This document shows positions 2,475 to 64,000 of a DNA stretch of 64,000 nt, in pieces. A program made the position numbers and the translations under genes. The DNA comes from Candidatus Parcubacteria bacterium (GTDB taxonomy: Bacteria > Patescibacteriota > Patescibacteriia > Patescibacteriales > UBA12075), in the NCBI GenBank assembly GCA_963814275.1, contig CAWFCE010000002.1, positions 42,537-106,536 on the forward strand, written 5' to 3'. The notes beneath the pieces are model-generated. The model was not told the DNA's origin and ran no database searches. It saw only the letters and a program-made list of their open reading frames with translations. Position 1 is the stretch's first letter; each line of letters begins with the position of its first letter.

Positions 2475-2665
2475 CAGTGATTTTTAAAATTTATACTATT
2501 ATCTAAATTCAATTTATTATAAAAAAACCTTGAAATTTGTAACTTGAAATTAGAAATTTGGATAATGGACTTGTACGTGTCCATATGGCGCCGAATTCCA
2601 AATTTCCAGTTGCCGGCTTGACATTAAATATTAACTGAACAAATGATCAGACGCTAATAAAATCA

Positions 2666-3802: not shown

Positions 3803-3852
3803 AAAATATTACCGATATTATTTTTGCTAACTTTTATATATTTTTATTTATA

Positions 3853-4004
3853 TTACCAAGATACCAGATACGACCTGCCTGCTGTCCGCCGGTAGGCAAC
3901 CAAACAATTTCCAAATCCCAATAATCAACAACTAAAAGATTTGGTTATCAGACAATTGATTATTGAAAATTGTTTGCAATTTGTATCTTGTGTCTTGGTT
4001 ATTT
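3853..4004. repeat. composite intergenic palindrome (CCAAGATAC words + CCTGCC...GGCAGG-type hairpin)
   Basis: accaagataccagatac...gacctgcctg...ggtaggc on the left. gtatcttgtgtcttggttattt (3983-4004) forms the inverted arm. Confidence 0.7.
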
Positions 4005-4028
4005 GTATGCGATTTGCATTTTAAATCA

Positions 4029-5183: not shown

Positions 5184-5211
5184 GATACGACCTGGCTGCC
5201 GGCGGGCAGGT
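5174..5211. repeat. same element family: aaataaccaagatac + GC hairpin
   Basis: aaataaccaagatac is the reverse complement of gtatcttggttattt. It is followed by acctggctgccggcgggcaggt. Confidence 0.7.
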
Positions 5212-5389
5212 TTGGAAATTGTTTGGTTATTGTCTCTTGGTTATTGGTTATTAGATGTAACGGAATGCCCGTGGCATCCGGATCTATTCATAAATTTAAT
5301 TCAAAAAAATAATTTATTATTTATCAACAAAACACCCTGCAAGCGCAGGATGTTTTATCAATCTATCTATGCCGCAATCTTCTAATATT

Positions 5390-5959
5390 TTATTTCCGTA
5401 ATTTAATTTCATAATCGATATGTTCGATCTTCTTTAAATTTGTTTTCGCCTGATCGTATTTCGTCCTGAGATAACCGGTCATATCGAATTCGACCAATTC
5501 CGCCATAATATCGCTGATCAAAACCTTGATTTTGCCGACTTCGCCGACATTGCCGGCCGCGGCCTGGTTGATGGCCCGGCGGACGAGCTCGCCCGTCAGG
5601 TCGCAAACGCCGCCCAGGTACGAATCGTAACTTATTTTCATGCCCTTGAAGTTTTCCAGTTTCTTGCCGGAAAGTACCAGCATCAGGGCTTTGGCTTCGA
5701 CATATTCTTCCGCGCCCGCCCGATAAGCGCCCTCTTCGCTCAAACGGCGGAAACCGAATTTTTTCTCCAGCTTCTTGATGACCGCTTCGATTTCGACCAT
5801 GCTCTCTTCCGCCTTCTTTTGGTCGCCGCGGTGAAGGGAAAATATGACCCGCTTCGAGTCATGCAGGATAGTGTTGGCCAGGCTGATGATCTGGCGGCGT
5901 TCTGAACTGTGCTCGTCATGCTCCTTTTTTAACTGTTGAAAAAATCTTTTGTTTATCAT
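5390..5959 (-). CDS. translin-family-like helical protein
   Basis: 189 aa and all-helical. The C-terminal YLGGVCDLTGELVRRAIN resembles the translin GGxxDLxGEL signature. Assigned from memory only. Confidence 0.45.
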   Translation of the reverse strand: MINKRFFQQLKKEHDEHSSERRQIISLANTILHDSKRVIFSLHRGDQKKAEESMVEIEAVIKKLEKKFGFRRLSEEGAYRAGAEEYVEAKALMLVLSGKKLENFKGMKISYDSYLGGVCDLTGELVRRAINQAAAGNVGEVGKIKVLISDIMAELVEFDMTGYLRTKYDQAKTNLKKIEHIDYEIKLRK

Positions 5960-6035
5960 ACTCTTTCGTATTAATCAAAATGTAAAAAACTGCCGAAATT
6001 TTGATTTTTGCATTTTGAATTTTGATTTATTAATT

Positions 6036-7751
6036 TTACTTGTCCTGTGCCACGCGCAACACTTCGGTAACACTGGTTATTCCGTCCATCGCTTTTATAA
6101 GGCCGTCCTGCATCATCGTCACCATGCCGGCCCGAACCCCGGCATTGCGTATGTCATATTCGCTGGCCGTGCCGGATAGGATCAATTTCTCGACTTCTTC
6201 GTTCATTACCATGATCTCATAAATGCCAATCCGTCCTTTATACCCGATCCCCTGGCAGGCTTCACAGCCGTCGGCCTCATAAAACCCAAGGTTTTTCAGG
6301 TCCAATTTCTTCTTTTCGTCCGGGGATAATTTTTCCAATACCGTCATGACCTTTTTCCTGGTCTCCTGATCGAGCTCCGCCGGATGCTTGCATTTTTCGC
6401 ATAATCGGCGTACCAGCCGCTGGCCGATCATGGCATTCAGGGCCGGCGCCAGAAGAAACGGCTTGGCTCCCATCGACAAAAAACGCGGGACGGTCCCGGA
6501 AGCATCGTTAGTATGGATCGTCGACAACACGAAGTGTCCGGTCAAAGCCGCCTGGATCGCTATTTCCGCCGTCTCCAGGTCCCTGATCTCACCGACCATA
6601 ATCACGTCAGGGTCCTGCCGGACGATCGAACGCAAACCTTGGGCAAACGTATATTTCTCGCTCGTCTGCGATTGGTTAATCCCTTCCAATTGATATTCGA
6701 TCGGATCCTCAATGGTAATGATCTTCGTTTCCGGGCTGTTCAGCTTCTTGAGTATCGCATACAGAGTCGTGGTCTTACCGCTGCCGGTGGGGCCGGTAGT
6801 GATCACCATTCCGTTCGGACGTTCGACTTCCCGCTTTAATTGTTCGAACGCTTTGTCCCGGATCCCGAGGTCTCCGAAATCCAAGCCGACAGCGCTGGAA
6901 CGAAGCAGCCGCATCACGACGCTTTCGCCGAAATTTGTCGGTAAAAACGAAGCACGAATATCGATGCGGTCATGTTTGGTCGAAATCGTCATCCGGCCGT
7001 CCTGAGGCTTGTCATCGACATTTATCTTCACCCGGGCCAGAACTTTCATACGCGATATTATTTTCCGCCATGATTCCTTGTCGATACTGGCTGCGTCGTG
7101 CAATACGCCGTCTATCCGAAATCGTATCTTGATCTCGTTTTCTTCAGCTTCGATATGGATATCGGAAGAATCCGACTTAACCGCTGCCGCCATGATCATG
7201 GTTACGATATCGGTAACCGCCGCCTGGCTGACCACTGACTGCAAATCCTGAAAACTGGTAAACTGGGTGCTGAACCTGTTCAAATCCTCCTCGGTAACTT
7301 CGACATTGCGGGAAACATTTCGCAAATGGGGAATCGCCCGGTACATATCGAATGCATACATCAGGCTATGGCGTGAAATCAAATATATTTCGACGGGCGA
7401 ATGGTATTTTTCGGATAATGTCTTGGCCGTTGCTTTGACTTCCAGACGATTGGGTTCGATCGTCGCGATCCTGATATGCGTACCGTCATAAAAGAAACAC
7501 ACCACGTTCAACTGGCGGGCGCGCTCTTCGGGTATGATCTTCAAGGCTTCCGGACTGACCGGAAATCCGAACAAATCAATATACGGCAAGCTCATATCCC
7601 TGGCTTGCGCCTGGATTTGGCGCTCCATTTCCTTGGTTTTTATTTCCTTCTGCTTGGCCTGAAATTTGGATTGGGCGCTTTCGTCGTCGCCGATTTGCTG
7701 TCCGCGCGAGGCCATTATCAAATCTTCGATTGAAGGCAGGTCTTGAGACAT
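6036..7751 (-). CDS. pilB: type IV pilus / type II secretion ATPase (GspE/PilB family)
   Basis: Walker A GPTGSGKTTT, Asp box, Walker B (DPDVIMVGEIRD), His box (LSTIHTND), and a tetracysteine CEKC...CEAC. Confidence 0.9.
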   Translation of the reverse strand: MSQDLPSIEDLIMASRGQQIGDDESAQSKFQAKQKEIKTKEMERQIQAQARDMSLPYIDLFGFPVSPEALKIIPEERARQLNVVCFFYDGTHIRIATIEPNRLEVKATAKTLSEKYHSPVEIYLISRHSLMYAFDMYRAIPHLRNVSRNVEVTEEDLNRFSTQFTSFQDLQSVVSQAAVTDIVTMIMAAAVKSDSSDIHIEAEENEIKIRFRIDGVLHDAASIDKESWRKIISRMKVLARVKINVDDKPQDGRMTISTKHDRIDIRASFLPTNFGESVVMRLLRSSAVGLDFGDLGIRDKAFEQLKREVERPNGMVITTGPTGSGKTTTLYAILKKLNSPETKIITIEDPIEYQLEGINQSQTSEKYTFAQGLRSIVRQDPDVIMVGEIRDLETAEIAIQAALTGHFVLSTIHTNDASGTVPRFLSMGAKPFLLAPALNAMIGQRLVRRLCEKCKHPAELDQETRKKVMTVLEKLSPDEKKKLDLKNLGFYEADGCEACQGIGYKGRIGIYEIMVMNEEVEKLILSGTASEYDIRNAGVRAGMVTMMQDGLIKAMDGITSVTEVLRVAQDK

Positions 7752-7821
7752 AGTTGAATATTTTTTAATACATTATTCTAAATCTTAGCATGGATCAAGA
7801 ATTACAATCTATACCACATAT

Positions 7822-7917
7822 CAGAAAACAGATAGCAGATAAAAGATAACAGAAATATAGACAATGATATTGCTTTATTGGCTATTCTGTTATCTGTTAT
7901 CTGCTATCTGTTGTCTA
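7822..7917. repeat. heptamer-word hairpin (cagaaaa cagatag cagataa aagataa cagaaat / complementary five heptamers)
   Basis: Five tandem 7-mers at 7822-7856 are complemented by five 7-mers at 7883-7917. Confidence 0.8.
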
Positions 7918-7986
7918 ATTGATAATTTTATTCAACTCTAAAAATTCGTATGTAATAAATTCGAAAACCCTAAATATCGTCACTAA

Positions 7987-8967
7987 CTACTCTTTTCCGA
8001 ACAGTCTGATCAGTTTGCTGACTCCGCCGCGATTGTAAAGCTCGATGAATAAGCTGGTCCAGGAATTGATCTGGAAAGCGCTCATGAAAGCGCTCAATAA
8101 CACCAAAATTATCAAATACGCCATTAAGGCGATCAAAATTACCGCCCAGAAATTGAATAGCAGCGAGAATTTAGCGAACACGAAAGCCATAAATATGAAA
8201 GGGATGGAAATGATCAAAAATGCCAGAACCAAAGCGGCGCCAATCAGAAAATTGATAAAAAATAAAATGAAAGCCATTTCCAGGCTCACGAGCCAATTAT
8301 TTATAAATAGCCGCCAACCCTGCCGGACAGCGGTTAACAAACCCACCCCCTTGATGACCACGAAGGCAATGGCATATTTGGCAATGAACGATAATACTAT
8401 CGATAGGGAAATAAAAATAACAAAAGCTATAATATATATGCTGCTGGTCAATGCCAAATCTTTGACTTGGTATGTCATTATAACTGGCAATGTCAATAAG
8501 AAAAACAAACCGTAAATAATCAGCTTAACCAAAAAATTAAGCCCTAAGACCGGCCAGAATTTTTTGGTCCCAACATCCAAACTTTCTTTAAAATTATGGA
8601 TCTTGTTCGTCCTGATCCGCGATGCCGAATAAACCAACGCTCCCTGGGAAGTTACGCATACCCAAAGAATAAAGACACTGATTATCATCACAAAAAACAA
8701 TACGCCCAATACTTTTACCAGGTTAAGCGGATCACTGCCGGCCAATCTGCCGACGTTGCCGAAAATTTGCCAGCTGAGCAACCCGGTTTCCGATAAGTGC
8801 TCGAAGCCGGGCAAAAGCGGCATACTTTCACCGCGGATGCCGCGGAACAGCAATTCGTACTCCCCGGCGCTGCCCATAAGCGCGGCGAACAGCCCGAAGA
8901 ACCATAGATATTTGTGGCGCCAAGAGGATTTAAGCGCCTGGCTTAATATGTCCCGATAAAGAGTCAT
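7987..8967 (-). CDS. polytopic membrane protein, unknown function
   Basis: 326 aa with at least 6 hydrophobic segments. No catalytic motif recognised. Confidence 0.6.
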   Translation of the reverse strand: MTLYRDILSQALKSSWRHKYLWFFGLFAALMGSAGEYELLFRGIRGESMPLLPGFEHLSETGLLSWQIFGNVGRLAGSDPLNLVKVLGVLFFVMIISVFILWVCVTSQGALVYSASRIRTNKIHNFKESLDVGTKKFWPVLGLNFLVKLIIYGLFFLLTLPVIMTYQVKDLALTSSIYIIAFVIFISLSIVLSFIAKYAIAFVVIKGVGLLTAVRQGWRLFINNWLVSLEMAFILFFINFLIGAALVLAFLIISIPFIFMAFVFAKFSLLFNFWAVILIALMAYLIILVLLSAFMSAFQINSWTSLFIELYNRGGVSKLIRLFGKE

Positions 8968-9313: not shown

Positions 9314-11161
9314 TCAATTATGCCCGACTACCTTCCCCGGTATCTGCTTTTTGCCGACCAGTTTTTCAAATTGCTCGCGTTCGATCGTCTCTTTAGTCAA
9401 AAGCTCCTTTACCACCAATTCGAGTTTGGGTTTTTGTTCCCTGATTATATTGTTCGCCAATTCTTTGGCCTGCATAATGAAATTGTTGATCTCCATATCG
9501 ATCTGTTCCGCCACTTTTTCACTATAATCGCGCTGCTCGGTAATTTCGCGCCCCAAAAATATCATTTCTTCCTTGTCGCCGAAAGTCCGCGGTCCCAGCT
9601 TTTCCGACATGCCGAAGTCGGTGATCAGACGGCGGGCAATGGTGGTCGCCCGGCGCAAATCGGAAGTGGCCCCGGTTGTAACTTCGCCGAATATTTCCCG
9701 TTCGGTCAGATAGCCGCCAAGAAGCACGGCAATCTCCTCGATATACTCGGTTTTGGTGTGCATATGCTTATCCTCGGTCGGCAGCTTCAAAGTGTAGCCG
9801 CCGGCTTGGCCGCGGGCGATAATCGATATTTTGTGGACCGGATCGGTATGAGGCAGATAATGGGCGATTACCGCGTGGCCCGCCTCATGATAAGCGGTGA
9901 TTTTCTTCTCATTCTCGGTGATAACCCGCGACCGTCGTTCCGGGCCGAGCATTACTTTCTCGATAGCCTCATAGAGCTCGTCCATTTCCACGATCTTTTT
10001 GTTGCGGCGGGCAGCTAGAATAGCCGCTTCGTTCAGCAAATTCGCCAAATCGGCGCCACTGAAGCCCGGCGTCCGTTCGGCGACTTTGCGCAGGCTTACT
10101 TCCTTGGCGAGCGGTTTGTGGCGGGCATGGATTTTGAGAATCGCTTCCCGGTCGGCGATATCGGGGTTATCCAGAATCACCTGGCGGTCGAAACGGCCGG
10201 GTCGAAGCAGGGCGGGATCGAGAACATCGGGCCGGTTGGTGGCGGCCATCACGATTATATTGGTATTGGGGTCGAAGCCGTCCATTTCCACCAATATCTG
10301 GTTCAAAGTCTGCTCCCGTTCGTCATGCGATCCGCCCAAACCGGCGCCGCGCCGGCGTCCGACCGCGTCTATCTCATCGATAAACACTATGCAGGGAGCG
10401 CTTTTTTTCGCTTTTTTGAACAAATCACGAACCCGCGACGCGCCGACGCCGACGAACATTTCGACGAATTCGGAACCGGACATATGGAAAAACGGCACGT
10501 TAGCTTCGCCGGCTACCGCCCGGGCCAAAAGCGTTTTCCCCGTACCGGGCGAGCCCAATAGCAGTACCCCGCGGGGGATTCTGGCGCCCAGTTCGAGGAA
10601 TTTGCGCGGGTGGCGGAGGAATTCCACTACTTCTTTGAGCTCTTCTTTGGCTTCTTTTACGCCCGCCACATCCTTGAATGTCACTTTGTCTTTTCTGTCC
10701 TGGTTGATCTCTTTGGCCTGGGACTGGCCGAACATCATTGCCCGCGAATTTGCCCCCTGGACGCTGCGCATCATGAAATAAATAAAGGCGCCGATCAGAA
10801 GGAAGGGCAGGACAAATGGCAATATCACTCCCAGCCAAAAATCAAACCCTTCATTTTCTTTGACTTCAATCGTGACATTTGCCAGCTTGTCGTTTTGGAC
10901 GCCAAAATTACTCAAAAGCTGGGATAAGGATTCTCCCGTTTCTTTATCCACCAGCTCCTGGCTTCCGTCAGTCAAAGTTATCTGCATTTCCGTACCCCTG
11001 ACGATTATTTCCTTGACTTTGCCGTCATTAATCTGTTTAATAAATGCTTCGAGACCGACGTTCTGCACGTTATTGGCTTTATTGCCATAAAAACTGAACA
11101 ATGCCGCGATCAGTATGAATACGGCAAAAAATATTGCAAAATTTTTAATTAAATTCTTCAT
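9314..11161 (-). CDS. ftsH: ATP-dependent zinc metalloprotease FtsH
   Basis: N-terminal TM pair, AAA+ Walker [12 protein letters not shown], Walker [12 protein letters not shown] region, and zinc motif HEAGHA. Confidence 0.95.
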
Positions 11162-11243
11162 GGTTAGTTTAATTATGATTTATAAATCTACCCTCTAATT
11201 GTTCACTATAACATACCGACTGAGTGTATGCATTATTAGAAAG

Positions 11244-11306
11244 CAGAAAACAGGTAGCAGATAGCAAATCACTTCATCCTGGGCTGCTATCTGTTTTCTA
11301 TTTGCT
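11244..11306. repeat. heptamer-word hairpin related to 7822-7917
   Basis: cagaaaa caggtag cagatag caaatca, followed by the arm gctgctatctgttttctatttgct. It shares cagaaaacagNtagcagata with the 7822 copy. Confidence 0.75.
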
Positions 11307-11485
11307 AAATAAATGAAGCGTCAATACGGCGACAATAACAATTGAGCATGCAAATCAATCCTGAAAAAACCGACCATACACGCATATAAGTATAATATAT
11401 ATCTTAATTTATTACAACCTTATTCCTGGCTAATATATTATCAACCAATAATTAATATTTTGTTAATAATCGGCGCCGGATTCAA

Positions 11486-14857: not shown

Positions 14858-15116
14858 ACGATTAGAAAAAAATTAATAAATAATTAAATTATCGCTTAGA
14901 TTAGTATCATTTAGTAACAATAATAGTATTAGCTTAGCAGAACCGCAAAATAAAGTCAAAAAATATTTGAGACCACAAGGCGAGGCCCTCCCGCCCCGCC
15001 TTTATTTGCCATTTTTATGATTTATAATAGTGCTTATTTCAAGATTGCCGGTACTTGCCGGCTTCGTCATTCCTGCCTACCGGCAGGCAGGCGGCATTTA
15101 TAATTAGCCATTTCTT

Positions 15117-17861: not shown

Positions 17862-17950
17862 ATATTATATTTAAAAATTGTTGCAATTTTTAATGTTAAA
17901 TTATTTTTAATAACCGATAACCAAACCGTTTGATTATTAATTACCGAAAC

Positions 17951-17989
17951 CTGCCTGCCGGCAGGTTGTATCTTGTATCTTGGTTATTT
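17951..17989. repeat. same element family, opposite orientation
   Basis: cctgcctgccggcagg followed by gtatcttgtatcttggttattt, which is one mismatch from 3983-4004. Confidence 0.7.
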
Positions 17990-18049
17990 CAAAGACTCTT
18001 ACTTAAAGATATTTCTTATGATTTCTGAGCAAATAGAACATTTTTATTT

Positions 18050-19589: not shown

Positions 19590-19666
19590 ATATTTTATTT
19601 AATCTTTAGTATAACAATAGAATATAACCACAAATATAGCTTTAAGGCAAGATAAATTATATTTTA

Positions 19667-19733
19667 AAATTTGTAACTTGAAATTTCGAAACTTGGCATT
19701 AAAATATTATCCTAATTTCCAATTTCAAATTTC
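19667..19733. repeat. AT-rich word hairpin sharing exact modules with two other loci
   Basis: aaatttgtaacttgaaat (19667-19684) equals 2533-2550. cctaatttccaatttcaaatttc (19711-19733) equals 57076-57098. Confidence 0.75.
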
Positions 19734-19742
19734 CAATTACCG

Positions 19743-22403
19743 TCATCTCGAAAATAATTTTTCCGGGACTTCTTCTTTTTCCTTCCTGTCTTGTTTTTCG
19801 TCATCATCATTGTCGTCCTCCTCGCTTTTTTCATCCTCTTCGTCCCCGTTATCGTCTTCACCCTCTTCCTCTTCCTCCTCCTCTTCTTCTTCATTATTAT
19901 CATCATCCTCGTTTTCCTTGTCTTCATCTTCCGGGTTGTCTTCCTCGTCACTATCTTCTTCTTCATCATCCTCGTCGCTTTCTTCTTCCTCATCGTCCTC
20001 TTCGCCATCAACCGGACGCATTACCGGCGGATGTTCGCTCTCATCCTCGCCCAGGTAGCTTTCCCGCGGCTGGCTGTCGGAGCGTGAATGGAGTGAAACG
20101 CCGGAAATCCCCTGATTCGACAAAGCGGCTAATTGCTGGCGGCTAACCAGGATTTCGCGCGGTTTGGCGCCGTTCGACGGCCCGACCACGCCCAATTCCT
20201 CCAATTGGTCCAAAATACTGGCGGCACGGGCATAACCTATCCGCATTTTACGCTGGAGGAATGAGGCCGAAGCCTTTTGAAATTTAACGATCACGTCCCT
20301 GGCTTCCACCAGAAGTTCATCTTCATCGCCTTTGGTGCCATCCAGGCCCACGCCAGCCACTCCTTTTACGGTCTGGCGTTCAGTGACATCGCTTAAAAAC
20401 TGCGGCCTGCCGCCCTTGTCCTTGATATAGCGGACAATCCGCTTGATCTCGCTTTCGGACAGGAACGCCCCCTGTAGACGCACCGGCTTGGATAATTCCG
20501 CGTTCAAATAAAGCATATCGCCGCGCCCCAAAAGCTTTTCCGCTCCCAGCGAATCCAAAATCGTCCGGGAATCGGTGCCCGAGGCGACTGAAAAAGCGAT
20601 CCGGCCCGGCATATTGGCTTTGATAAGACCGGTTATTACATCCACGCTCGGCCGCTGGGTAGCCAGCATCAGGTGAATACCGACGGCACGCGCCATTTGC
20701 GCCAGCCGGATCACGCTCGCCTCTATATCTTTGGCGTTAGCCACCATCAAATCGGCCAGCTCATCGATCACAAAAACGATAAACGGCATTTTGATCTTGG
20801 CTGTCTCGTTGTATGACTGGATATTGCGCTTGCCTAATTTTTGCAGGACCTCGAAGCGGCGGTCCATTTCATTGAGGCACCATTTGAGCGCGTTGATCGT
20901 TTTCGGCACCTCGGTTATGACCGGGGCCAATAGATATGGCGTACCGTTATAAGTCGGCAATTCGACCCGTTTCGGGTCGACCATGATGAAGCGCAGCTGG
21001 TCGGGCGTATTCTGATACATCAGGCTGACTATAATGGCGTTCAAGCACACGGACTTGCCCGAATTAGTCGCGCCGGCCACCAGGAGATGGGGCATCCGGG
21101 TCAGGTCATCGAGCCAGACTCCGCCGGCCACATCTTTGCCCAAGGCCATCATCATATCGCTTTTACGCTCCTTGTAGCGCTTGTTCGTCAGTATCTCCCG
21201 CAGGGTAACCACCGCTTTCGACTGGTTCGGCACTTCCACCCCGACCAAATGGGTGCCGGGGATAGGCGCCTCGATACGGATCGGGTGGGCGGCCAGGGCC
21301 AGGGCCAGATCATTCGACAATGTCGTTACGCGGGATAATTTTACCCCTTCGGCCGGCCGGAATGTATACTGGGTCACGGTCGGTCCGACACTGACATTGC
21401 CCATTTCGACCGGAATACCGAAATTCTGCAGGGAATTTTCGATTATTTTTTTATTCTGTTCAATATCGCCGCTGGTCGGTTTTTCCCGACTGCTGTCCAG
21501 TAATTTGACAGGCAGCTTGATATCAATCCCGGTGGGCGTCATCCACCAGATATCCTCCTCGGTTGCCTTGACTTCCTTGGCGGTAAAATGGGGTTCTTCC
21601 TCTTCCTCATTATCACCATCCTCTTCGTCGTTTTCCTCTTCTTCCTCTTCTTCCTCTTCTTCCTCTTCGCCCTCATCGTCTTCTTCATCCTCTTCGTCCT
21701 TGTCCTCGTCTTCTTCATCCTCGTCGTCGTTTTCCTCTTCATCCTCTTCGTCGTTTTCCTCTTCATCTTCTTCGTCCTTGTCCTCATCCTCTTCGTCCTC
21801 GTCATGATGGAAAAGCTTGCGGAAAATGAATTTTAGGGGGACAAATAAACGGGCAAAAATGCTTTCTCCACCGATCAAATTCTTAAGCGAAGTATCGAAG
21901 AGCATCAAAAGGGATACGATAAACAAAGCAAAGGTAAGCAGCAGGGAGGCAAAAAAGCCCATCAGCGTCAAAAGCGATCCGGCTAAAAAATTACCGATGT
22001 AACCGCCGCCGGCCCCGGCCGGCAAAGCCTGCTGCCATTCCCCATAAGGAATAAACAAAAATAATAAGGTATGAAAAGTCAGGATGAATAATATCAGGCC
22101 GATATAATTCTTGCCCCTGAGCTCGAACCGCTCCTCGTCGTAAAGCATATAGCCCCAGGCGAGAAAAACCAAAGGAATGAGCCAGCGGCCCCAACCGAAA
22201 CCCATCATAAGCCATCGGCGCAAATATTGGCCCAAGAGTCCGGCCATATCGAATAGTCCCAGGAGGCAGATAGCTCCCAGGGCGAGAATAAAGACGATAA
22301 ATATTCCTTTTTTGGTATCCGGATCCAGATCCAGCCGGGGAAGGCTGGGTAAACGGATATAATCAAGAGCGCTCCGGCGGCGCCGGCGACGGCGTGCAAC
22401 CAT
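19743..22403 (-). CDS. ftsK: DNA translocase FtsK with two extreme Asp/Glu-rich tracts
   Basis: N-terminal TM segments, Walker A GATNSGKS, Walker B VFVIDELADL, and a gamma winged helix (ASASFLQRKMRIGYARAASILDQLEELGVV). One acidic linker and a roughly 135-aa acidic tail follow the gamma domain. Confidence 0.9.
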   Translation of the reverse strand: MVARRRRRRRSALDYIRLPSLPRLDLDPDTKKGIFIVFILALGAICLLGLFDMAGLLGQYLRRWLMMGFGWGRWLIPLVFLAWGYMLYDEERFELRGKNYIGLILFILTFHTLLFLFIPYGEWQQALPAGAGGGYIGNFLAGSLLTLMGFFASLLLTFALFIVSLLMLFDTSLKNLIGGESIFARLFVPLKFIFRKLFHHDEDEEDEDKDEEDEEENDEEDEEENDDEDEEDEDKDEEDEEDDEGEEEEEEEEEEEENDEEDGDNEEEEEPHFTAKEVKATEEDIWWMTPTGIDIKLPVKLLDSSREKPTSGDIEQNKKIIENSLQNFGIPVEMGNVSVGPTVTQYTFRPAEGVKLSRVTTLSNDLALALAAHPIRIEAPIPGTHLVGVEVPNQSKAVVTLREILTNKRYKERKSDMMMALGKDVAGGVWLDDLTRMPHLLVAGATNSGKSVCLNAIIVSLMYQNTPDQLRFIMVDPKRVELPTYNGTPYLLAPVITEVPKTINALKWCLNEMDRRFEVLQKLGKRNIQSYNETAKIKMPFIVFVIDELADLMVANAKDIEASVIRLAQMARAVGIHLMLATQRPSVDVITGLIKANMPGRIAFSVASGTDSRTILDSLGAEKLLGRGDMLYLNAELSKPVRLQGAFLSESEIKRIVRYIKDKGGRPQFLSDVTERQTVKGVAGVGLDGTKGDEDELLVEARDVIVKFQKASASFLQRKMRIGYARAASILDQLEELGVVGPSNGAKPREILVSRQQLAALSNQGISGVSLHSRSDSQPRESYLGEDESEHPPVMRPVDGEEDDEEEESDEDDEEEDSDEEDNPEDEDKENEDDDNNEEEEEEEEEEGEDDNGDEEDEKSEEDDNDDDEKQDRKEKEEVPEKLFSR

Positions 22404-27590: not shown

Positions 27591-27707
27591 TGTTCTTATT
27601 ATTTAAATTAAATACAAAATCAATCAGCTCTTCCATGATGGCCCGACCTTTAATATCATCTTCTGAGTATATGATTTTGATTTTAGGTTTATTCATTATT
27701 AAACAAA

Positions 27708-38700: not shown

Positions 38701-38707
38701 ACCATTT

Positions 38708-45352: not shown

Positions 45353-45635
45353 ATTTTAGTAAACAGTAAATAGTAAACAGCCAGCCTACCGGCAGGCAGG
45401 TAAACAGAATTTAAACAAATCGTTTTATATATATTAGTTGTGTAATTTTCTTCTGCTTGCTGAAAATGAATTAATTTTGAAATTAATAATAAATTTTATC
45501 GGCGTGAAATCCGCGTAGCCATCTGCGTAATATCCGCGGATAAATAATTGTGTATAAAATAAACACTTATATTACAATAAAAAGAAGGAAAGAAAACATT
45601 TTCTATTCCAATATTATTATACAATATTTTGCTAA

Positions 45636-46982: not shown

Positions 46983-47190
46983 GACTCTCCTTTTCGGTTT
47001 ATTTACTGGTTAATTTGTTTGGTAAACCATAGTAACTGAAATGTCAAAGGTCTATTCACCTCCTTTTTTAAAATAAAAACCCGCAACTCCCTGTAGGGCG
47101 CGGATTGTTAAAAGCCAATTTTGTTTTTATATTTGTCTAATTAAATTGTAACACATAGCGGATAATGTTGACAAGACGCCTGTGGTACGT

Positions 47191-47285
47191 CGCACGCAGC
47201 ACATAGCACGCACCACAAATATATAATATTTATATCGGATAATACTATGATTCATGTTGCGTGCTATGTGCTATGTGCTGCATGC
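47191..47285. repeat. heptamer-word hairpin (gtgctat gtgctat gtgctgc arm)
   Basis: gcagcacatagcacgca (47197-47213) is complementary to the tandem heptamers at 47261-47281. Confidence 0.7.
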
Positions 47286-48011: not shown

Positions 48012-48380
48012 TTTTGTTTTTGTTTTGTTTTTACCCGTGAGCTTACGGGGATTGGTGCAATTCCGGGGTTTTTACCCCGATATATACATTCTAGCAAATT
48101 TTTAATGAATTGTCAATGTGGAAAACATTAAATAATTGAAAAACACCATTAATTATAGGCGATTATTGAAAAATTTTTCGTATAATTTAAATGCCGACCA
48201 TTCAATTATCAATTTTCAGTAACCCAATAATCCAAACAAATATTTAATGTTAAATATCAAATATTTAAATATCTCCATTTAATTATTAATTATTTGATAT
48301 TTGATATTGATTGAGTCACTGGATCATTGAAAATTGATAATTTTAAAACTATCATAATTTGCTAACTCTAAATTGCTAGC

Positions 48381-49842: not shown

Positions 49843-49915
49843 TATCGTAAATCGGAGATCGTAAATCATAGATCGTCATTGCCGTCAAGGAATGGTTCAT
49901 GATTCATGATTTACG
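49843..49915. repeat. heptamer-word hairpin (atcgtaa atcggag atcgtaa atcatag atcgtca)
   Basis: Five tandem 7-mers are followed by a complementary arm (...tcatgattcatgatttacg). Confidence 0.65.
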
Positions 49916-49924
49916 CTCTCCGCT

Positions 49925-50503
49925 TCACGATTCCCCGATCCACTCCAAGATCTTCTCCACCGGTTTTTGATCGGGCAAGGCGTTCGTTTCCACCGTGAGG
50001 ACGGGCAGGGAGCAATGTTCGATTTCCTTCAAATATTCCCGCTGCTGCCCGGTATACCACTGCGGATCCTTTAAAACGCGCTGATAGTGGGGATACAGGT
50101 TAAGCCGGTCCTTAATCCTGCCCTCTAGTAATTTTTCGTCCTCAGGAAAGGTTATCAAAATAATTTTAAAATCCAGCTGCTTCAGCCGTTCCACCGCCTT
50201 GTTGTAGCCAATCTCCGCCTTACGATACATCCGATTGTAAACGACATCAGACAGATAAAATTTTTCGATCAACAAATTTTTGTCTTTAAGATCTTCGAAT
50301 ATATCCAAATAATGGGCGATCACAGGCTGGCCGTATGGCGTCCCGAAAATCCCGACATCGCAATTGAACCAATGGCAGCCGTCCAGAAGATAGCCGCTTT
50401 GGTTATATTTCGGCTCGAGATGGTTATAGATCTGGCTCATCAGCCAGCTTTTGCCCGAAAGCTCAGCGCCTTCGAAGATTAGATGGATCGGTTTGATTTT
50501 CAT
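49925..50503 (-). CDS. P-loop nucleoside/nucleotide kinase-like protein
   Basis: IHLIFEGAELSGKSW is a Walker A motif. The size and layout resemble dNK/dTMP-kinase-fold proteins. Confidence 0.45.
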   Translation of the reverse strand: MKIKPIHLIFEGAELSGKSWLMSQIYNHLEPKYNQSGYLLDGCHWFNCDVGIFGTPYGQPVIAHYLDIFEDLKDKNLLIEKFYLSDVVYNRMYRKAEIGYNKAVERLKQLDFKIILITFPEDEKLLEGRIKDRLNLYPHYQRVLKDPQWYTGQQREYLKEIEHCSLPVLTVETNALPDQKPVEKILEWIGES

Positions 50504-50649
50504 ATTAAAAACAAATTAGCTCACGCGAATGTACAAATTTTAATACAAATATACAAATTACTAATAAGCGCAACTAAACAATTTGTAATTTGTAAATTTG
50601 TAGCCTGATTTGTATATTCGCGTGATAAATATTTTTTATTCGAGCAACA

Positions 50650-55720: not shown

Positions 55721-55844
55721 ATGATTACGAATATATAATCCGAATCTACAAATTATATCCGAATGCTCCGAATACGAATTTCTGAATTATTCGGATAAAA
55801 TAATTCGGGGCATTCGGAACGTTGTTCGGGGCATTCGGATTATG

Positions 55845-57023: not shown

Positions 57024-57098
57024 GGAAATTGGAAATTAGCAACTGGAAATTTGGCATAAACTTCTAATTCAATTTCCTAATTTCCAATTTCAAATTTC
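57024..57098. repeat. heptamer-word hairpin (ggaaatt ggaaatt agcaact ggaaatt ... ctaatttccaatttc)
   Basis: Tandem 7-mers are followed by a complementary arm. The 23-nt cctaatttccaatttcaaatttc (57076-57098) is identical to 19711-19733. Confidence 0.75.
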
Positions 57099-57109
57099 TA
57101 ATTTCATTA

Positions 57110-58609: not shown

Positions 58610-58620
58610 ATTTTATCCCG

Positions 58621-58676
58621 CAACACATAACACGTAGCATTATTATTTATGATATCGTGCTACATGTTATGTATTG
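58621..58676. repeat. intergenic hairpin (caacacataacacgtagca / tgctacatgttatgtattg)
   Basis: 19-nt arms, nearly complementary, separated by an AT-rich loop. Confidence 0.65.
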
Positions 58677-58687
58677 CGTGCTATATG

Positions 58688-59221
58688 TTATGTGATTTGT
58701 GTCGAGTTGGCGGCGCAGATGGCGACAGCCAGAGCGTCGGCCGCGTCATCCGGTTTGGGCAGTTCGTCCAGTTTCAATAATATTTTGACCATCCGCTGAA
58801 CCTGCAGCTTGCTCGCCTGTCCGTAGGTGGACACGGCTTGTTTGACCTGGAGCGGGGTATATTCCGCCACGTCGACGCCGACCTGGCAGGCAGTCAGCAT
58901 TATCACCCCGCGCGCCTGGCCGACAGTAAGGGCGGTACGGACATTCTTGGCAAAATACAGCTGCTCCACGCCGATCAGCTGCGGTTTATAGCGCTTGATC
59001 AAGTCTGCCAGTTCACGGTGAAGCTGAAATAGCCTCTCCGAAAGCGGCAAGCCGGCTTTGGTCCTGATCGTGCCATATGTGACCGAACGAAGGACGCCTT
59101 TGCCATCACGGCTGATAACGCCATAACCGGTATCGGCGATTCCCGGATCTATTCCGAGAATTGTTAACGGGGATCGGTGATCGGAAATCGGAAATCGGGT
59201 TTTGGCTGGTTTGTTTGGCAT
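58688..59221 (-). CDS. ruvC: crossover junction endodeoxyribonuclease RuvC
   Basis: ILGIDPGIADTGYGVI, ...IGVEQLYF..., DAADALAVAIC. Confidence 0.9.
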   Translation of the reverse strand: MPNKPAKTRFPISDHRSPLTILGIDPGIADTGYGVISRDGKGVLRSVTYGTIRTKAGLPLSERLFQLHRELADLIKRYKPQLIGVEQLYFAKNVRTALTVGQARGVIMLTACQVGVDVAEYTPLQVKQAVSTYGQASKLQVQRMVKILLKLDELPKPDDAADALAVAICAANSTQIT

Positions 59222-59937: not shown

Positions 59938-60258
59938 AAAATTGTCATCAAATTAAAGTAAAAAATAAAATCTTTAAATCATTTTCCGCTTCAAATTAAC
60001 GTTTCAATCAACGGTAAAAGATTATTACAAATAAAAAAACCGGAACTTCCCATAAAATATCAAATATTTGCCGCCTGTCTTTTTATATAAAAAATAACTT
60101 ACAACTTATAACAAATAACATGGGGGTTTTACATTGCCTGTTATAGGTTATAAATTATAAGTTATTATATATCGAATACTTTTTAACGATACCACATATT
60201 GCGATAAAAATCAAGGTTTACTATAATGGATATATGATTATTAACCTTATATTACGTT

Positions 60259-62784: not shown

Positions 62785-64000
62785 TTATTTAACCAATTTC
62801 TTCACCATATAAGTCTCCCTCAGCCGATAACCCAGCTTGCGGTAATAGGGGCGGACTCCCACACCGGCGATTACGGCTATTTTTTCGCATCCCTGTTCCC
62901 GGGCGATCCGCTCCGCTTCCGCCATCAATCTCCGTCCCAGTCCGGCGTGCTGGATCTTCTTACCCTTGCCGACCGGCACCAGTTCCCCATACACATGCAA
63001 CTCGCGGACCAGGGAATTTTCGATTTTCGATTTTCGATTTTCGATTCTTAAACGGCAAAAACCATATAGTATTTTTTTGTCCCGGGAATTTGCCGAGATG
63101 AAATATTCCTTTCCCGAAGAAGCGTTATATTCGACAATCTCCAGTCTCCAGTCTCCAGTCTCCAGACTCTCCCCTCTAGGCTCCCGGCAGCGGATACAAT
63201 TGCATTTCACTCCCTGTAGCTTCAATTCCTGGCGCAGATTCGTGATCCGGTTGCCGGCGACGATCGACTCGGCCGGGATGTCGCGGATCAAGCGGATGAT
63301 GCGGACATATCGCGGCACAGCGGCTTTGCATTCTATTATCAAATTGCGCAGAACCTTTTCCGAATACGGCTTATACTTGCCCTGCCGCCACCAGCGGTAT
63401 AACAAACTGCCCTTGGTGACGACTGTGGGATAAAACTTGATCTGGTCCGGCTGGAACCGCTCATCGGTAAAAAGCTGCCGGAACATCTTAAGGTCTTTAC
63501 CGGCGGTAGCGCCGGGCAGGCCGGGCATGATATGGTAAGTAACTTTGAAGCCGAAATCCTTGAGCAATCCGGTCGCGGCGGCAATTTCATAGACACCATG
63601 GCCGCGTTTGTTTTTGTCTAAAATTTTATCGTCAATCGCCTGTACTCCCAATTCGATCCGGGTTGCTCCCAATTCCCGCATCTCCCAAAGCTCTTTTTCG
63701 TCAATATGGTCAGGCCGGGTCTCCAGGGTGATTCCGATCAGGCGGAAACGCGATCGTTCGTTTATTTTTTGTTGTTTTAGTAAGTCTTTCTTTATACTAT
63801 AGACAGATAGCTTTGTCAAATTATTCCTCACCGGCCCTTTGCTTTTATTGATCTTAAATTCGTTAGCCGCCCGAAAGCATTCGGTAATATACCAATACTT
63901 ATATTTGCGCGGCAGGACGCTCCAGGTACCGCCGATCACGATCAACTCGATCTTATCCGGTTCATGGCCGTTATTGGTAAGGGCGCGCAGACGGTCCTGG
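62785..64000 (-). CDS. elp3: Elp3-like radical-SAM/GNAT tRNA-modification enzyme (5' end outside window)
   Basis: ITLETRPD, ATRIELGVQ, YHIMPGLPG, a C-terminal GNAT region (LVRELHVYG...GLGRRLM), and a frame that stays open to the window edge (...LIVIGGTW). Confidence 0.8.
   Translation of the reverse strand, partial: QDRLRALTNNGHEPDKIELIVIGGTWSVLPRKYKYWYITECFRAANEFKINKSKGPVRNNLTKLSVYSIKKDLLKQQKINERSRFRLIGITLETRPDHIDEKELWEMRELGATRIELGVQAIDDKILDKNKRGHGVYEIAAATGLLKDFGFKVTYHIMPGLPGATAGKDLKMFRQLFTDERFQPDQIKFYPTVVTKGSLLYRWWRQGKYKPYSEKVLRNLIIECKAAVPRYVRIIRLIRDIPAESIVAGNRITNLRQELKLQGVKCNCIRCREPRGESLETGDWRLEIVEYNASSGKEYFISANSRDKKILYGFCRLRIENRKSKIENSLVRELHVYGELVPVGKGKKIQHAGLGRRLMAEAERIAREQGCEKIAVIAGVGVRPYYRKLGYRLRETYMVKKLVK

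What the first reader, a model, noticed from the sequence alone, without database searches (positions are those of the whole stretch)
7822..7917. Host intergenic regions are filled with hairpins whose arms are degenerate tandem heptamer words
At 7822-7856 the sequence parses exactly as cagaaaa|cagatag|cagataa|aagataa|cagaaat. At 7883-7917 it parses as tattctg|ttatctg|ttatctg|ctatctg|ttgtcta, which is the complementary arm. The same architecture, with different or related words, recurs at several other loci. These are 11244-11306 (cagaaaa caggtag cagatag), 45361-45412 (aaacagt aaatagt aaacagc), and 47191-47285 (gtgctat x2, gtgctgc). They also include 49843-49915 (atcgtaa atcggag atcgtaa atcatag atcgtca), 57024-57098 (ggaaatt x3), and 3853-4004. 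Looser versions occur at 2533-2606, 48190-48350, 50521-50640, 55730-55850, 58621-58700 and 60095-60175. They lie between co-directional genes, just 3' of stop codons or 5' of starts. They usually lack a clean U-tract. They are absent from the island. The 7-nt periodicity combined with dyad symmetry is not explained by ordinary terminators. It suggests either arrays of protein-binding half-sites or a slippage-driven process that generates expandable stems.
Basis: seen in the sequence. Interest (0 to 1): 0.6.

Follow-up and report, generated by a model that had tools for sequence, protein, structure and literature searches.

The report
Heptamer-armed hairpin elements between genes
The spaces between genes in this small uncultured (CPR/Patescibacteria) bacterium really are packed with long hairpins whose two arms are runs of 7-base words. 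They look like gene-less relatives of a little-studied selfish element, the "intervening sequence" that carries a small four-helix-bundle gene, rather than ordinary terminators or protein-binding sites.

Summary
In host intergenic DNA the lag-7 self-match is 0.353 against 0.287 in shuffles (z = 13.7). No other lag except 14 stands out. About half of the period-7 arrays have an inverted partner, giving AU-rich hairpins of 20-43 bp (fold z-scores -3 to -10.8).

The window comes from a closed 1.27-Mb CPR genome. These hairpins are not canonical terminators: they have no U-tract, and GC-stem plus T-run terminators exist elsewhere in the window. They are not arrays of one protein site either, because there are many words and no shared core.

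Relatives at 69-77% protein identity carry hairpins in the same slots with the same or different words. Two window hairpins sit where relatives have only 0-20 nt of spacer or overlapping genes. Several loci share the same order of variant units, so arrays are gained and copied.

In relatives, the same inverted heptamer arrays bracket S23p/"four helix bundle" genes in 9-10 of 11 loci. One of these is at the RuvC-GlgA junction, where the window has a gene-less hairpin. Two copies of that element differ by exactly one 7-nt unit.

Heptamer repeat excess is already known in bacteria. The hairpin and S23p link in a CPR genome appears to be new. RNA-level function (RNase III processing) is inferred, not shown.

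The parts
7819..7924 (-). Type example. Hairpin of 41-43 bp with arms 7822-7856 and 7883-7917, made of GATAACA/GATAGCA (cagataa) heptamers. It lies between a DUF7544 gene (7987-8967) and the PilB/GspE-like ATPase gene (6036-7751).
   Evidence: RNA fold gives -46.3 kcal/mol, z = -10.8. The orthologous slot carries heptamer hairpins in L001, L002 and L004, and canonical terminators in L003 and L005.
11236..11308 (-). Hairpin of the same word family (CAGAAAA CAGGTAG CAGATAG), upstream of ftsH (9314-11161).
   Evidence: 20 nt at 95% identity to the 7822 locus, same unit order. Fold z = -3.0.
19673..19740 (-). Hairpin of the GGAAATT/AATTTCC family, 3 nt after the stop codon of ftsK (19743-22403).
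   Evidence: 29 nt at 96.6% identity to 57015-57110 with the same order of variant units. Fold z = -4.1.
47189..47281 (-). Hairpin of 35 bp with CATAGCA/CGCAGCA-type units.
   Evidence: Fold -47 kcal/mol, z = -5.6.
48190..48350 (-). Nested AT-rich palindromes with period-7 arrays (CAAATAT, TATTTGA). The core hairpin is 48244-48310.
   Evidence: (I2, I5, I13).
49844..49931 (-). Hairpin of 34 bp with period 7/14 (ATCGTAA ATCGGAG). It overlaps the stop codon of 49925-50503 and ends 39 nt before the start of glgA-like 48381-49805.
   Evidence: Fold z = -6.2.
50523..50623 (-). Looser hairpin with ACAAATT/AATTTGT units. It fills the 146-nt spacer.
   Evidence: (I1). Shares its word with the array at 54613-54635.
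55732..55843 (-). Hairpin with CCGAAT-type units. It fills the GH57-APH spacer.
   Evidence: Fold z = -5.0. The same slot has heptamer hairpins with other words in L161 (12700-12832, -70.6 kcal/mol) and L165 (4736-4864), and a GC hairpin in L163.
57025..57105 (-). Hairpin of the GGAAATT family. It fills the 95-nt GlgA-GH57 spacer.
   Evidence: z = -5.0. The spacer is 9 nt in L165 and 11 nt in L161, with conserved flanking protein ends, so this is a lineage-specific gain.
58619..58678 (-). Hairpin of 21-25 bp (CATAACA/CGTAGCA units). It fills the 78-nt RuvC-GlgA spacer.
   Evidence: Fold z = -7.4. The spacer is 0-20 nt in L163 and L165. In L161 the same junction holds an S23p gene bracketed by inverted CGTAACC/CATAACC arrays.
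60093..60166 (.). Hairpin of 26-29 bp (TAACTTA CAACTTA TAACAAA TAACATG). It lies in the divergent spacer between yebC (minus strand) and pgi (plus strand), and is followed by U6 on the minus strand.
   Evidence: z = -8.1. Identical in an independent assembly.
3853..4004 (-). Composite nested element. Outer arms of the ATAACCA/AGATACA heptamer family enclose an AU hairpin (3901-3976) and a GC palindrome (3872-3897).
   Evidence: (z = -5.9). Shares 24 nt at 96% identity with 17955-17990.
5973..6027 (-). Short hairpin with an AATTTTG array. It fills the 76-nt spacer between pilB and the translin-family gene.
2533..2606 (-). Looser member of the GAAATTT family.
   Evidence: 19 nt at 100% identity to the 19660 locus.
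5190..5260 (-). GC palindrome ACCTGCCCGCCGGCAGCCAGGT flanked by ATAACCA heptamers and their complement. Further copies of the palindrome lie at 15071-15092, 17949-17966, 42564-42585 and 45384-45401.
   Evidence: 9 strand-matches against 0.02 expected. Context shown.
45357..45380 (-). Unpaired array (AGTAAAC x3.3), 5-30 nt upstream of the smc start codon (45352) and next to a GC palindrome.
59172..59200 (-). Array (CCGATTT x4) lying in the apparent 18-aa N-terminal extension of RuvC, which is absent in relatives.
63016..63169 (-). Two near-perfect heptamer arrays (ATTTTCG x4.4 at 63016-63046, TCTCCAG x4.6 at 63138-63169) inside variable loops of the Elp3-like radical-SAM/GNAT gene.

Best explanation
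The hairpins are gene-less palindromic elements whose arms are degenerate tandem heptamers. They belong to the same kind of element that, in related genomes, encloses a small S23p/'four helix bundle' gene between inverted heptamer arrays. That is the architecture of the 23S-rRNA intervening sequences (IVS), here found between protein-coding genes.

Proposed working:
1. Bacteria have a general, known bias towards 7-nt tandem duplication, so arms grow and shrink in 7-nt steps.
2. Whole arrays, or whole palindromes, are copied to new intergenic sites and occasionally into tolerant coding loops. This gives small within-genome families and lineage-specific gains.
3. Because almost all genes here are co-directional, the elements are transcribed inside polycistronic RNA. 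There they form 20-43 bp AU-rich duplexes. Such duplexes are expected substrates of RNase III, as shown experimentally for rRNA IVS stems, or act as 3'-end or stabiliser hairpins.

Shown here: the periodicity, the dyad pairing, the intergenic position without U-tracts, slot conservation with word turnover, the gains relative to relatives, the shared unit order between loci, a 7-nt indel between element copies, and the S23p association in relatives.

Inferred: that the window's gene-less hairpins descend from or use the same machinery as the S23p elements, the copying mechanism, and any RNA processing role.
For: Periodicity and pairing are well beyond chance.

The hairpins differ from canonical terminators, which exist in the same window at 45670-45645, 53254-53219 and 9281-9256.

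Orthologous slots:
- Upstream of pilB, the window, L001, L002 and L004 have heptamer hairpins, with words CAGATAA, GCAGATA, CAGACAA and AAAATGN.
- The GH57-APH slot has hairpins in the window, L161 and L165, each with a different word.

Gains: the GlgA-GH57 spacer is 95 nt in the window against 9-11 nt in relatives. The RuvC-GlgA spacer is 78 nt against 0-20 nt, with conserved protein ends on both sides.

Copying:
- 29 nt at 96.6% identity, with the same order of variant units, between 19660-19745 and 57015-57110.
- 24 nt at 96% between 3840-4010 and 17955-17990.
- 20 nt at 95% between 7810-7930 and 11225-11320.

Link to S23p elements:
- L161 carries a TIGR02436/PF05635 gene between inverted CGTAACC/CATAACC arrays at the RuvC-GlgA junction.
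- In the same genome, gene-less hairpins share the end sequence CATAACGCGTAACG...TTTATT with that element.
- L170 and L171 hold element copies about 98% identical in different gene contexts. They differ by one 7-nt unit on the right and about 8 units on the left.
- 9-10 of 11 independent S23p loci are bracketed by period-7 arrays within 10 nt. Only 2.1% of positions in the background lie within 60 nt of an array.

Published support:
- The Coxiella IVS stem carries 2-3 GACAGAT heptamers, varying between strains, and RNase III cuts in that stem (PMC4990558).
- CPR rRNA genes hold 23S_rRNA_IVP ORFs and many short ORF-less inserts (PMC11270868).
- Heptamers are the commonest long SSR in most bacteria (Mrazek et al. 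2007, as summarised in PMC4692102 and PMC4679880). This was reproduced here.
Against: - No S23p gene lies in the 64-kb window, and the rest of the source genome could not be searched.
- Similarity between the window hairpins and S23p-element ends is limited to short words such as CATAAC. Many window words (GGAAATT, ACAAATT, CCGAAT) have no S23p counterpart in the loci examined.
- Loops are not conserved between family members, so copying of whole elements is not proven.
- There is no significant excess of G.U over A.C mismatches on the sense strand (17 v 10), so selection on RNA pairing is not demonstrated.
- Three hairpins show no length change between strains 99.36% identical.
- S23p has no known catalytic activity, so a mobility mechanism is lacking.
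Confidence: 0.5

Rival explanations
1. They are this lineage's factor-independent transcription terminators or attenuators, lacking U-tracts. The hairpin is what selection keeps, and the 7-nt periodicity is only the mutational route by which stems lengthen.
For: - They lie after stop codons of co-directional genes.
- At the pilB-upstream slot, L003 and L005 have a canonical GC hairpin plus T8.
- The L001 and L004 hairpins there are followed by T7, and the L027 heptamer hairpin by TTTTTCTTTTTT.
- 60093-60166 is followed by U6 on the minus strand.
- A hairpin of some kind is kept at the GH57-APH slot in four lineages.
Against: - None of the window hairpins passes the terminator scan, and 11 of 12 have no T-run.
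- Stems are AU-rich, 20-43 bp, and often have long loops.
- Canonical terminators are used elsewhere in the same window.
- Two hairpins were inserted into operon junctions that are 0-20 nt long or overlapping in relatives.
- Identical array types occur in coding loops and bracket S23p genes inside operons, for example between hydrogenase subunit genes in L176.
Confidence: 0.2
2. They are neutral by-products of heptanucleotide slippage alone. Each arm of a pre-existing small inverted repeat expands independently. There is no copying between loci, no element identity and no function.
For: - Period 7 dominates tandem repeats across phyla.
- In L002 each arm is homogenised on its own: CAGACAA x4 on one arm, against CAGACGA x3 read from the complement of the other.
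- Arrays occur wherever they are tolerated, including coding loops.
- About half of the arrays are unpaired.
- There is no sense-strand G.U bias.
Against: - The same order of variant units appears at distant loci.
- Unit-specific variants are mirrored between the arms at 7822/7883.
- About 70-85 nt of extra spacer was gained, most of it hairpin, with no local precursor in relatives.
- Element copies about 98% identical sit in different contexts.
- The arrays are tightly associated with one gene family.
Confidence: 0.2
3. They are arrays of half-sites for a DNA- or RNA-binding protein (iteron-like, nucleoid-associated, or Csp/S1-type heptamer binders).
For: - The spacing is regular and the sites are intergenic.
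- MacGregor 2015 proposed S1/Csp/Csr binding for TAACTGA repeats, and B. subtilis CspB binds heptamer units (PMC4679880).
- S23p could itself be a binder of its flanking arrays (speculation).
Against: At least eight unrelated words occur in one 64-kb window, with no common core. Words turn over at orthologous slots. Arrays occur in coding DNA.
Confidence: 0.05
4. They are phase-variation (contingency) repeats that switch neighbouring genes on and off through changes in copy number.
For: Tandem short repeats lie near start codons. Perfect arrays sit inside the Elp3-like gene. The heptamer number varies between Coxiella strains.
Against: Units are degenerate. The neighbouring genes are housekeeping genes (ftsH, gyrA, smc, glycogen genes). 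No length difference was seen between strains 99.36% identical.
Confidence: 0.03

Closest known systems
Heptanucleotide long simple-sequence repeats over-represented in prokaryotic intergenic DNA (Mrazek, Guo & Shah 2007, as summarised in PMC4692102 and PMC4679880)
   Same: Period 7, intergenic location, and presence in many phyla. Reproduced here: 145 period-7 arrays against 11-83 for periods 5-11 in 2.34 Mb. The polymerase-slippage hypothesis is the same.
   Different: That work counts tandem arrays only. Here the arrays are degenerate, about half are paired in inverted orientation as long hairpins, they form small families, and they are tied to S23p elements.
GGGAATC repeats of Xanthomonas and GGGGAYT repeats of Nostoc (Rehm et al. 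2015, PMC4692102)
   Same: Intergenic heptamer arrays. Some occur as inverted pairs able to form stem-loops. They are conserved in position but variable in length and sequence between related species.
   Different: Those have one G-rich, quadruplex-forming word per genome. Here there are many AU-rich words and no G4 potential.
TAACTGA direct repeats of Beggiatoaceae, cyanobacteria and Bacteroidetes (MacGregor 2015, PMC4679880)
   Same: Heptamer arrays immediately upstream of start codons. The word is close to the TAACTCA/TAACTTA units that flank CPR S23p genes (L171) and to window 60093-60166.
   Different: Those are almost exclusively direct repeats of one word (one inverted case in 170). No hairpins and no S23p link were reported.
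23S rRNA intervening sequences carrying an S23p (PF05635/TIGR02436) ORF, e.g. Coxiella burnetii (PMC4990558); also recorded in CPR rRNA genes (PMC11270868)
   Same: A stem of complementary ends encloses a four-helix-bundle ORF. There are tandem heptamers in the stem (GACAGAT x2-3, strain-variable). The stem is cut by RNase III. ORF-less short versions exist.
   Different: IVS are defined by insertion in rRNA helices. The relatives' elements sit between protein-coding genes, and the window's hairpins have no ORF.
REP/REPIN elements (Bertels & Rainey 2011, PMC3116915)
   Same: Intergenic, hairpin-forming, dispersed, non-coding palindromes that fill spacers between co-directional genes. The GC palindrome ACCTGCCTGCCGGCAGGT in this window is REP-like.
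   Different: REPINs are high-copy families of conserved sequence mobilised by a RAYT transposase. They have no 7-nt periodicity, and no RAYT was seen here.
Cyanobacterial STRR heptamers (Mazel et al. 1990) and small dispersed repeats nested in tandem heptameric repeats of Nostoc punctiforme (Elhai et al. 2008). Both are cited from memory; the papers are not held in the library.
   Same: Tandem heptamers in intergenic DNA, with small hairpin-forming repeats nested inside them. Compare 3853-4004, 5190-5260 and 17949-17990.
   Different: A different phylum and different words. No S23p link was reported, to my knowledge.

Membership tests
Heptanucleotide long SSRs (LSSR 5-11) | Tandem head-to-tail repeats with a 7-nt unit, beyond chance | tested here: met
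   Lag-7 z = 13.7. 27 period-7 TRF rows.
Heptanucleotide long SSRs (LSSR 5-11) | Enrichment in intergenic rather than coding DNA | tested here: met
   Coding lag-7 z = -2.4 against intergenic z = 13.7. There are a few exceptions inside coding loops.
Heptanucleotide long SSRs (LSSR 5-11) | Length change in whole units (slippage) | tested here: inconclusive
   A 7-nt indel separates the L170 and L171 element copies. No change was seen in 3 hairpins between L161 and L162. No second strain of the window organism is available.
Intrinsic (Rho-independent) terminators | Short GC-rich stem with a 3-8 nt loop | tested here: not met
   Stems are 20-43 bp with 60-80% A-U pairs, and loops reach 30 nt. None was called by the scan.
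Intrinsic (Rho-independent) terminators | U-tract directly after the stem on the transcribed strand | tested here: not met
   Downstream 12-mers are listed. Only 60093-60166 has a U6.
Intrinsic (Rho-independent) terminators | Transcripts end there | not testable with these tools
   No transcript data are available.
23S-rRNA-type intervening sequences (S23p IVS) | Long stem formed by complementary termini | tested here: met
23S-rRNA-type intervening sequences (S23p IVS) | S23p/four-helix-bundle ORF in the loop | tested here: not met
   No PF05635-like ORF in the window by tblastn or a custom HMM. It is met in relatives L161, L167, L170, L171, L172, L174, L176, L027 and L079.
23S-rRNA-type intervening sequences (S23p IVS) | Inserted in an rRNA helix | tested here: not met
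   No rRNA in the window. The elements lie between protein-coding genes.
23S-rRNA-type intervening sequences (S23p IVS) | Stem cleaved by RNase III | not testable with these tools
   Inferred only from stem length and from PMC4990558.
REP/REPIN | Many copies of one conserved palindromic sequence | tested here: inconclusive
   Heptamer-hairpin families have 2-3 members per 64 kb, sharing 19-29 nt. The GC palindrome has 5-6 copies. The whole genome was not available.
REP/REPIN | Cognate RAYT (IS200/IS605-like) transposase in the genome | not testable with these tools
   None was found among the window proteins scanned.
Iteron-like or other protein-binding site arrays | One recognisable word shared by all arrays | tested here: not met
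   Word catalogue. TAAC occurs in 15 of 78 arrays and AAAT in 38 of 78, which reflects composition rather than a motif.
Phase-variation contingency repeats | Perfect repeats that vary between close strains and sit in or before surface or virulence genes | tested here: not met
   Degenerate units, housekeeping neighbours, and no variation between L161 and L162.

The most novel reading that the evidence does not exclude
Heptamer-armed hairpins and S23p ('four helix bundle', bAvd-like) genes together form one widespread, unrecognised class of mobile palindromic elements. On this reading:
- The rRNA intervening sequences are merely the copies that landed in rRNA.
- The gene-less intergenic hairpins are their non-autonomous, MITE-like derivatives.
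- The unexplained excess of heptanucleotide repeats in bacterial genomes is produced, at least in part, by the propagation of this element rather than by generic polymerase slippage.
Probability: 0.15. Interest if true: 0.85.

Novelty: new variant of a known kind. Interest (0 to 1): 0.6.

Why it matters
Three loose ends are tied together by the sequences examined here:
- the long-noted but unexplained dominance of 7-nt units among bacterial tandem repeats;
- the function of the very common S23p/'four helix bundle' proteins;
- the origin of rRNA intervening sequences.

If gene-less heptamer hairpins are the non-autonomous partners of S23p elements, all three become testable through S23p binding assays, RNase III cleavage assays and comparative genomics.

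There are practical consequences too. In a 1.27-Mb CPR genome these elements occupy roughly 20 of 32 host spacers. They have been inserted into operon junctions and even into coding loops. They therefore affect gene calling (for example the RuvC N-terminal extension), operon prediction and terminator prediction in Patescibacteria. They may also dictate how polycistronic RNAs are processed.

Tried and rejected
- **Chance or AT-rich low complexity.** Rejected by dinucleotide shuffles.
- **Assembly artefact.** Rejected. An independent Logan assembly is identical across one hairpin.
- **Known RNA families.** The Rfam gathering scan finds only LOOT RNA, in the island. No tRNA genes were found.
- **Close strains of the window organism, to score expansion or contraction.** None exist in the collections. 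The nearest proteins are 74-77% identical. The metagenome scan with GlgA returned only relatives at about 45% identity, so it was useless for orthology and was reused as a background set.
- **Strand asymmetry of G.U against A.C mismatches, to decide between RNA-level and DNA-level selection.** The count was 17 v 10, which is not significant.
- **A universal core word.** TAAC was suggested by several loci, by TAACTGA and by the Coxiella GACAGAT. It was not supported across 78 arrays.
- **An S23p gene in the window.** Absent by tblastn and by an HMM built from 120 homologues.
- **Elhai 2008 and the original Mrazek 2007 paper.** Neither could be read, as they are not held. They are cited at second hand or from memory.
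- **'Absent from the island' as evidence.** The island has too little intergenic DNA for this to carry weight (P about 0.11).
Full report
**1. The observation**

They are 91% complementary over 35 nt. Tandem Repeats Finder reports 27 period-7 rows in the window.

I built a crude gene map and took 7,505 nt of host intergenic DNA.
- The fraction of bases equal to the base 7 positions on is 0.353, against 0.287 in dinucleotide-preserving shuffles (z = 13.7).
- Lag 14 gives z = 7.3, and every other lag from 2 to 15 stays below z = 5.
- Bases inside local lag-7 repeats number 251, against 4.2 +/- 9.3 expected.
- Coding DNA shows only the usual period 3.

At the stricter threshold, 7-8 of 14 arrays have an inverted partner within 150 nt. 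A hairpin census finds 12-13 intergenic stem-loops of 20-43 bp whose arms have lag-7 fractions of 0.45-0.75. Ten of them fold with z-scores between -3.0 and -10.8 relative to shuffles. A contig assembled independently from a public run (L166) is 100% identical over 3.3 kb that include hairpin 60093-60166.

- 45361-45412 is an unpaired array beside a GC palindrome.
- About half of the arrays are unpaired.
- 60093-60166 lies between divergent genes.
- Arrays also occur in coding DNA.
- The absence from the low-GC island is not informative. The island (about 25.2-40.3 kb) opens with a serine recombinase. It has only 1,284 nt of intergenic DNA, about 2.2 loci would be expected, and P(0) is about 0.11.

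**2. Where the window comes from**

The PilB/GspE-like ATPase (6036-7751) finds its best relatives, at 74% identity, in MAGs labelled Falkowbacteria or Parcubacteria. A glycogen synthase of the window is 100% identical to a protein recorded on a 1,274,625-bp contig, and the next relative is 77% identical. The window is thus from a closed genome of a CPR/Patescibacteria bacterium with no close strain in the collections.

Nearly all genes lie on the minus strand. They are housekeeping genes: ftsH, S1, gyrA, ftsK, smc, phoH, and a yebC-ruvC-glgA-GH57-APH-PHP cluster.

**3. What the hairpins are not**

*Not canonical terminators.*
- Stems are AU-rich and very long.
- 11 of 12 have no T-run on the sense strand.
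- None is called by the terminator scan. That scan does find GC-stem plus T-run sites at other gene ends in the same window: 45670-45645, 53254-53219 and 9281-9256.

*Not known RNAs.* The Rfam gathering scan finds only LOOT RNA, in the island, and there are no tRNA genes.

*Not arrays of one binding site.* The 78 arrays of the window and six related loci have many unrelated consensus units and no common core. Words also change at orthologous positions.

**4. Comparative evidence**

*Same slots, changing words.* The lag-7 signal is present in the closest relatives L001, L002 and L004.
- Upstream of pilB, the window has CAGATAA/G arms.
- L001 has GCAGATA arms followed by T7.
- In L002 one arm reads CAGACAA and the complement of the other reads CAGACGA, so each arm has been homogenised separately.
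- L004 has AAAATGN arms followed by T7.
- L003 and L005 carry a textbook GC hairpin plus T8 at the same place.
- The GH57-APH junction carries a heptamer hairpin in the window (CCGAAT-type), in L161 (CGTAACN, -70.6 kcal/mol) and in L165 (ATTACGA). L163 has a GC hairpin there.

So some slots keep a hairpin while its sequence turns over.

*Lineage-specific gains.* Other hairpins are new in this lineage.
- GlgA-GH57 is 95 nt in the window (hairpin 57025-57105), but 9 nt in L165 and 11 nt in L161. The protein ends on both sides are almost identical.
- RuvC-GlgA is 78 nt (hairpin 58619-58678), against 0-20 nt or overlapping genes in L163 and L165.

*Stability between close strains.* Two strains 99.36% identical (L161 and L162) show 141 differences, but none in three heptamer hairpins. 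The stems are therefore not hypermutable.

**5. Copying between loci**

Within the window, several loci share more than a word.
- 19660-19745 and 57015-57110 share 29 nt at 96.6%, with the same succession of variant units (TAATTTC CAATTTC AAATTTC ...).
- 3840-4010 and 17955-17990 share 24 nt at 96%.
- 7810-7930 and 11225-11320 share 20 nt at 95%.

Loops are not conserved.

A GC-rich palindrome, ACCTGCCTGCCGGCAGGT, occurs at 5-6 intergenic sites: 9 strand-matches against 0.02 expected. At three of them it sits between heptamer arms of the ATAACCA/AGATACA family. This gives nested composites such as 3853-4004. It resembles the small dispersed repeats nested in heptamer repeats of Nostoc (from memory; the paper could not be read).

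**6. The process is not confined to spacers**

- The Elp3-like gene at the right end of the window contains two near-perfect arrays. One encodes a 5-residue insertion relative to the L161 orthologue.
- The other lies at a loop that, in L161, is encoded by a different heptamer array. That L161 array is also present in a second loop of the same gene.
- RuvC appears to have an 18-residue N-terminal extension encoded by a CCGATTT array.

This favours a mutational or insertional process acting genome-wide, retained wherever it is tolerated.

**7. It is not confined to this lineage**

In 2.34 Mb of loci from many phyla, fetched for unrelated reasons, period-7 arrays number 145. The counts for periods 5, 6, 8, 9, 10 and 11 are 11, 32, 56, 83, 19 and 29. 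Of the 145, 54 have an inverted partner. Clear heptamer-armed hairpins occur in loci labelled Desulfobacteraceae, Syntrophobacterales, Nitrospirae and Geobacter.

This reproduces the published statement that heptanucleotides are the most abundant long SSR in most bacterial genomes. The proposed explanation there is the footprint of the DNA polymerase (Mrazek et al. 2007, as summarised in PMC4692102 and PMC4679880). Inverted pairs were noted in Xanthomonas and Nostoc (PMC4692102).

**8. The link to S23p/IVS-like elements**

*The L161 element.* In L161, a 116-residue TIGR02436/PF05635 'four helix bundle' protein gene lies between RuvC and GlgA. This is the 'S23p' family of 23S rRNA intervening sequences, distantly related to DGR Avd. 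The junction is the one that holds hairpin 58619-58678 in the window. The gene is bracketed by inverted arrays: CGTAACC CATAACC CATAACG CGTAACG on one side and their complement on the other. Together they close a stem around the ORF. Gene-less hairpins in the same genome share the end sequence CATAACGCGTAACG...TTTATT.

*How general the bracketing is.* An HMM built from 120 homologues finds every S23p gene in my loci. I fetched further homologues as well. Of 11 independent loci, 9-10 have period-7 arrays within 10 nt of the ORF ends. In the background, only 2.1% of positions lie within 60 nt of an array. One of these elements sits between the small- and large-subunit genes of a NiFe hydrogenase (L176).

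*Two near-identical copies.* Two copies from one sample (L170 and L171) are about 98% identical over about 440 nt, in different gene contexts. The borders are sharp. The copies differ by exactly one 7-nt unit in the right array and about eight units in the left.

*Published parallels.* The Coxiella IVS has 2-3 tandem GACAGAT units in its stem, varying between strains, and RNase III cuts there (PMC4990558). CPR rRNA genes hold 23S_rRNA_IVP ORFs and many short ORF-less inserts (PMC11270868). I found no paper describing this association outside rRNA.

*The limit of this evidence.* The window itself contains no S23p gene.

**9. Mechanism proposed**

The best-supported reading is that the window's hairpins are gene-less palindromic elements with heptamer-SSR arms, of the same kind as the S23p/IVS-like elements of related genomes.
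- Arms change in 7-nt steps (shown for L170 and L171).
- Arrays or palindromes are copied to new sites. This is shown by shared unit order and by junctions that are only 0-20 nt or overlapping in relatives. The mechanism is unknown.
- Once transcribed within co-directional gene strings, the 20-43 bp duplexes are expected to be RNase III substrates or 3'-end hairpins. This is inferred by analogy with IVS.

The G.U against A.C mismatch test for selection on the sense RNA was not significant (17 v 10), so RNA function remains unproven.

The rivals, in order of weight, are:
- U-tract-less terminators;
- pure slippage without copying;
- protein-binding arrays;
- contingency loci.

**10. Verdict**

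The heptamer excess and occasional inverted pairs are known. New here are the dense hairpin form in a CPR genome, its gain inside operons and coding loops, the nested GC palindrome, and above all the tight association of inverted heptamer arrays with S23p genes outside rRNA.

I rate it a new variant of a known kind, with interest 0.6.

Noticed in passing
window 5190-5211, 15071-15092, 17949-17966, 42564-42585, 45384-45401 (variant at 3872-3897): A GC-rich palindrome, ACCTGCCTGCCGGCAGGT, is dispersed in intergenic DNA: 9 strand-matches against 0.02 expected. It is often nested between heptamer arms. It is REP-like, and two matches also occur in relative L004.
   Followed up: partly
window 63016-63046 and 63138-63169 (Elp3-like gene, 62785 to the window end, minus strand); L161 4243-4280 and 4931-4965: Near-perfect heptamer arrays lie inside coding loops of a conserved radical-SAM/GNAT gene. 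One makes a 5-aa insertion. Another loop is array-encoded in both genomes but with different words. L161 has the same array in two loops.
   Followed up: partly
window 59172-59200 (RuvC ORF 58688-59221): RuvC appears to carry an 18-residue N-terminal extension (MPNKPAKTRFPISDHRSP...) encoded by a CCGATTT x4 array and absent in relatives. Either the array became coding or the start codon is miscalled.
   Followed up: partly
window 59489-59528 (inside yebC, 59221-59937): A period-7/14 array (TCGTCAT / ATTCGTCATTCGAA) lies inside the YebC/TACO1-family coding region.
   Followed up: no
window about 25166-40300: A low-GC island (about 0.30 against 0.47) begins with a large serine recombinase (25166-26773). 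It is probably an integrated element. Its intergenic DNA shows no lag-7 signal, but it is only 1,284 nt.
   Followed up: partly
window 36089-36213 (minus strand): LOOT RNA (Rfam RF03000) matches at 74.8 bits (gathering score 46.4) inside the island. It is the only Rfam hit in the window.
   Followed up: no
window 5390-5959 (minus strand): A Translin-family protein (PF01997, E = 5e-22), an uncommon nucleic-acid-binding family in bacteria, flanked by heptamer features.
   Followed up: no
window 46983-47681: A 699-nt stretch without a convincing ORF. It holds hairpin 47189-47281, a terminator-like hairpin at 47294-47327, and a long GC-richer stem-loop at 47517-47627 (45 pairs, -52 kcal/mol). There is no Rfam match, so it may be an unannotated RNA.
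   Followed up: no
L170 1469-1867 and L171 1417-1894: Two copies of an S23p element, about 98% identical, lie in different polysaccharide-gene contexts in one sample. The borders are sharp and there is a single 7-nt unit difference. This is the best evidence for mobility together with heptamer-step length change.
   Followed up: yes
L176 601-948: An S23p gene with inverted CATAACT/CGTAACG arrays is inserted between the small- and large-subunit genes of a NiFe hydrogenase.
   Followed up: partly
L174 540-945 and 971-1312: Two S23p genes lie tail to tail. The first is preceded by a complete gene-less heptamer hairpin (GAAACTT GAAGCTT ...). They are next to HepT/MNT toxin-antitoxin genes.
   Followed up: no
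L090 5043-5281: A very long (about 190 nt) CAATCGN heptamer array with an inverted GATTGCA array beside it, in a 64% GC contig. It shows that the phenomenon is not limited to AT-rich genomes.
   Followed up: no
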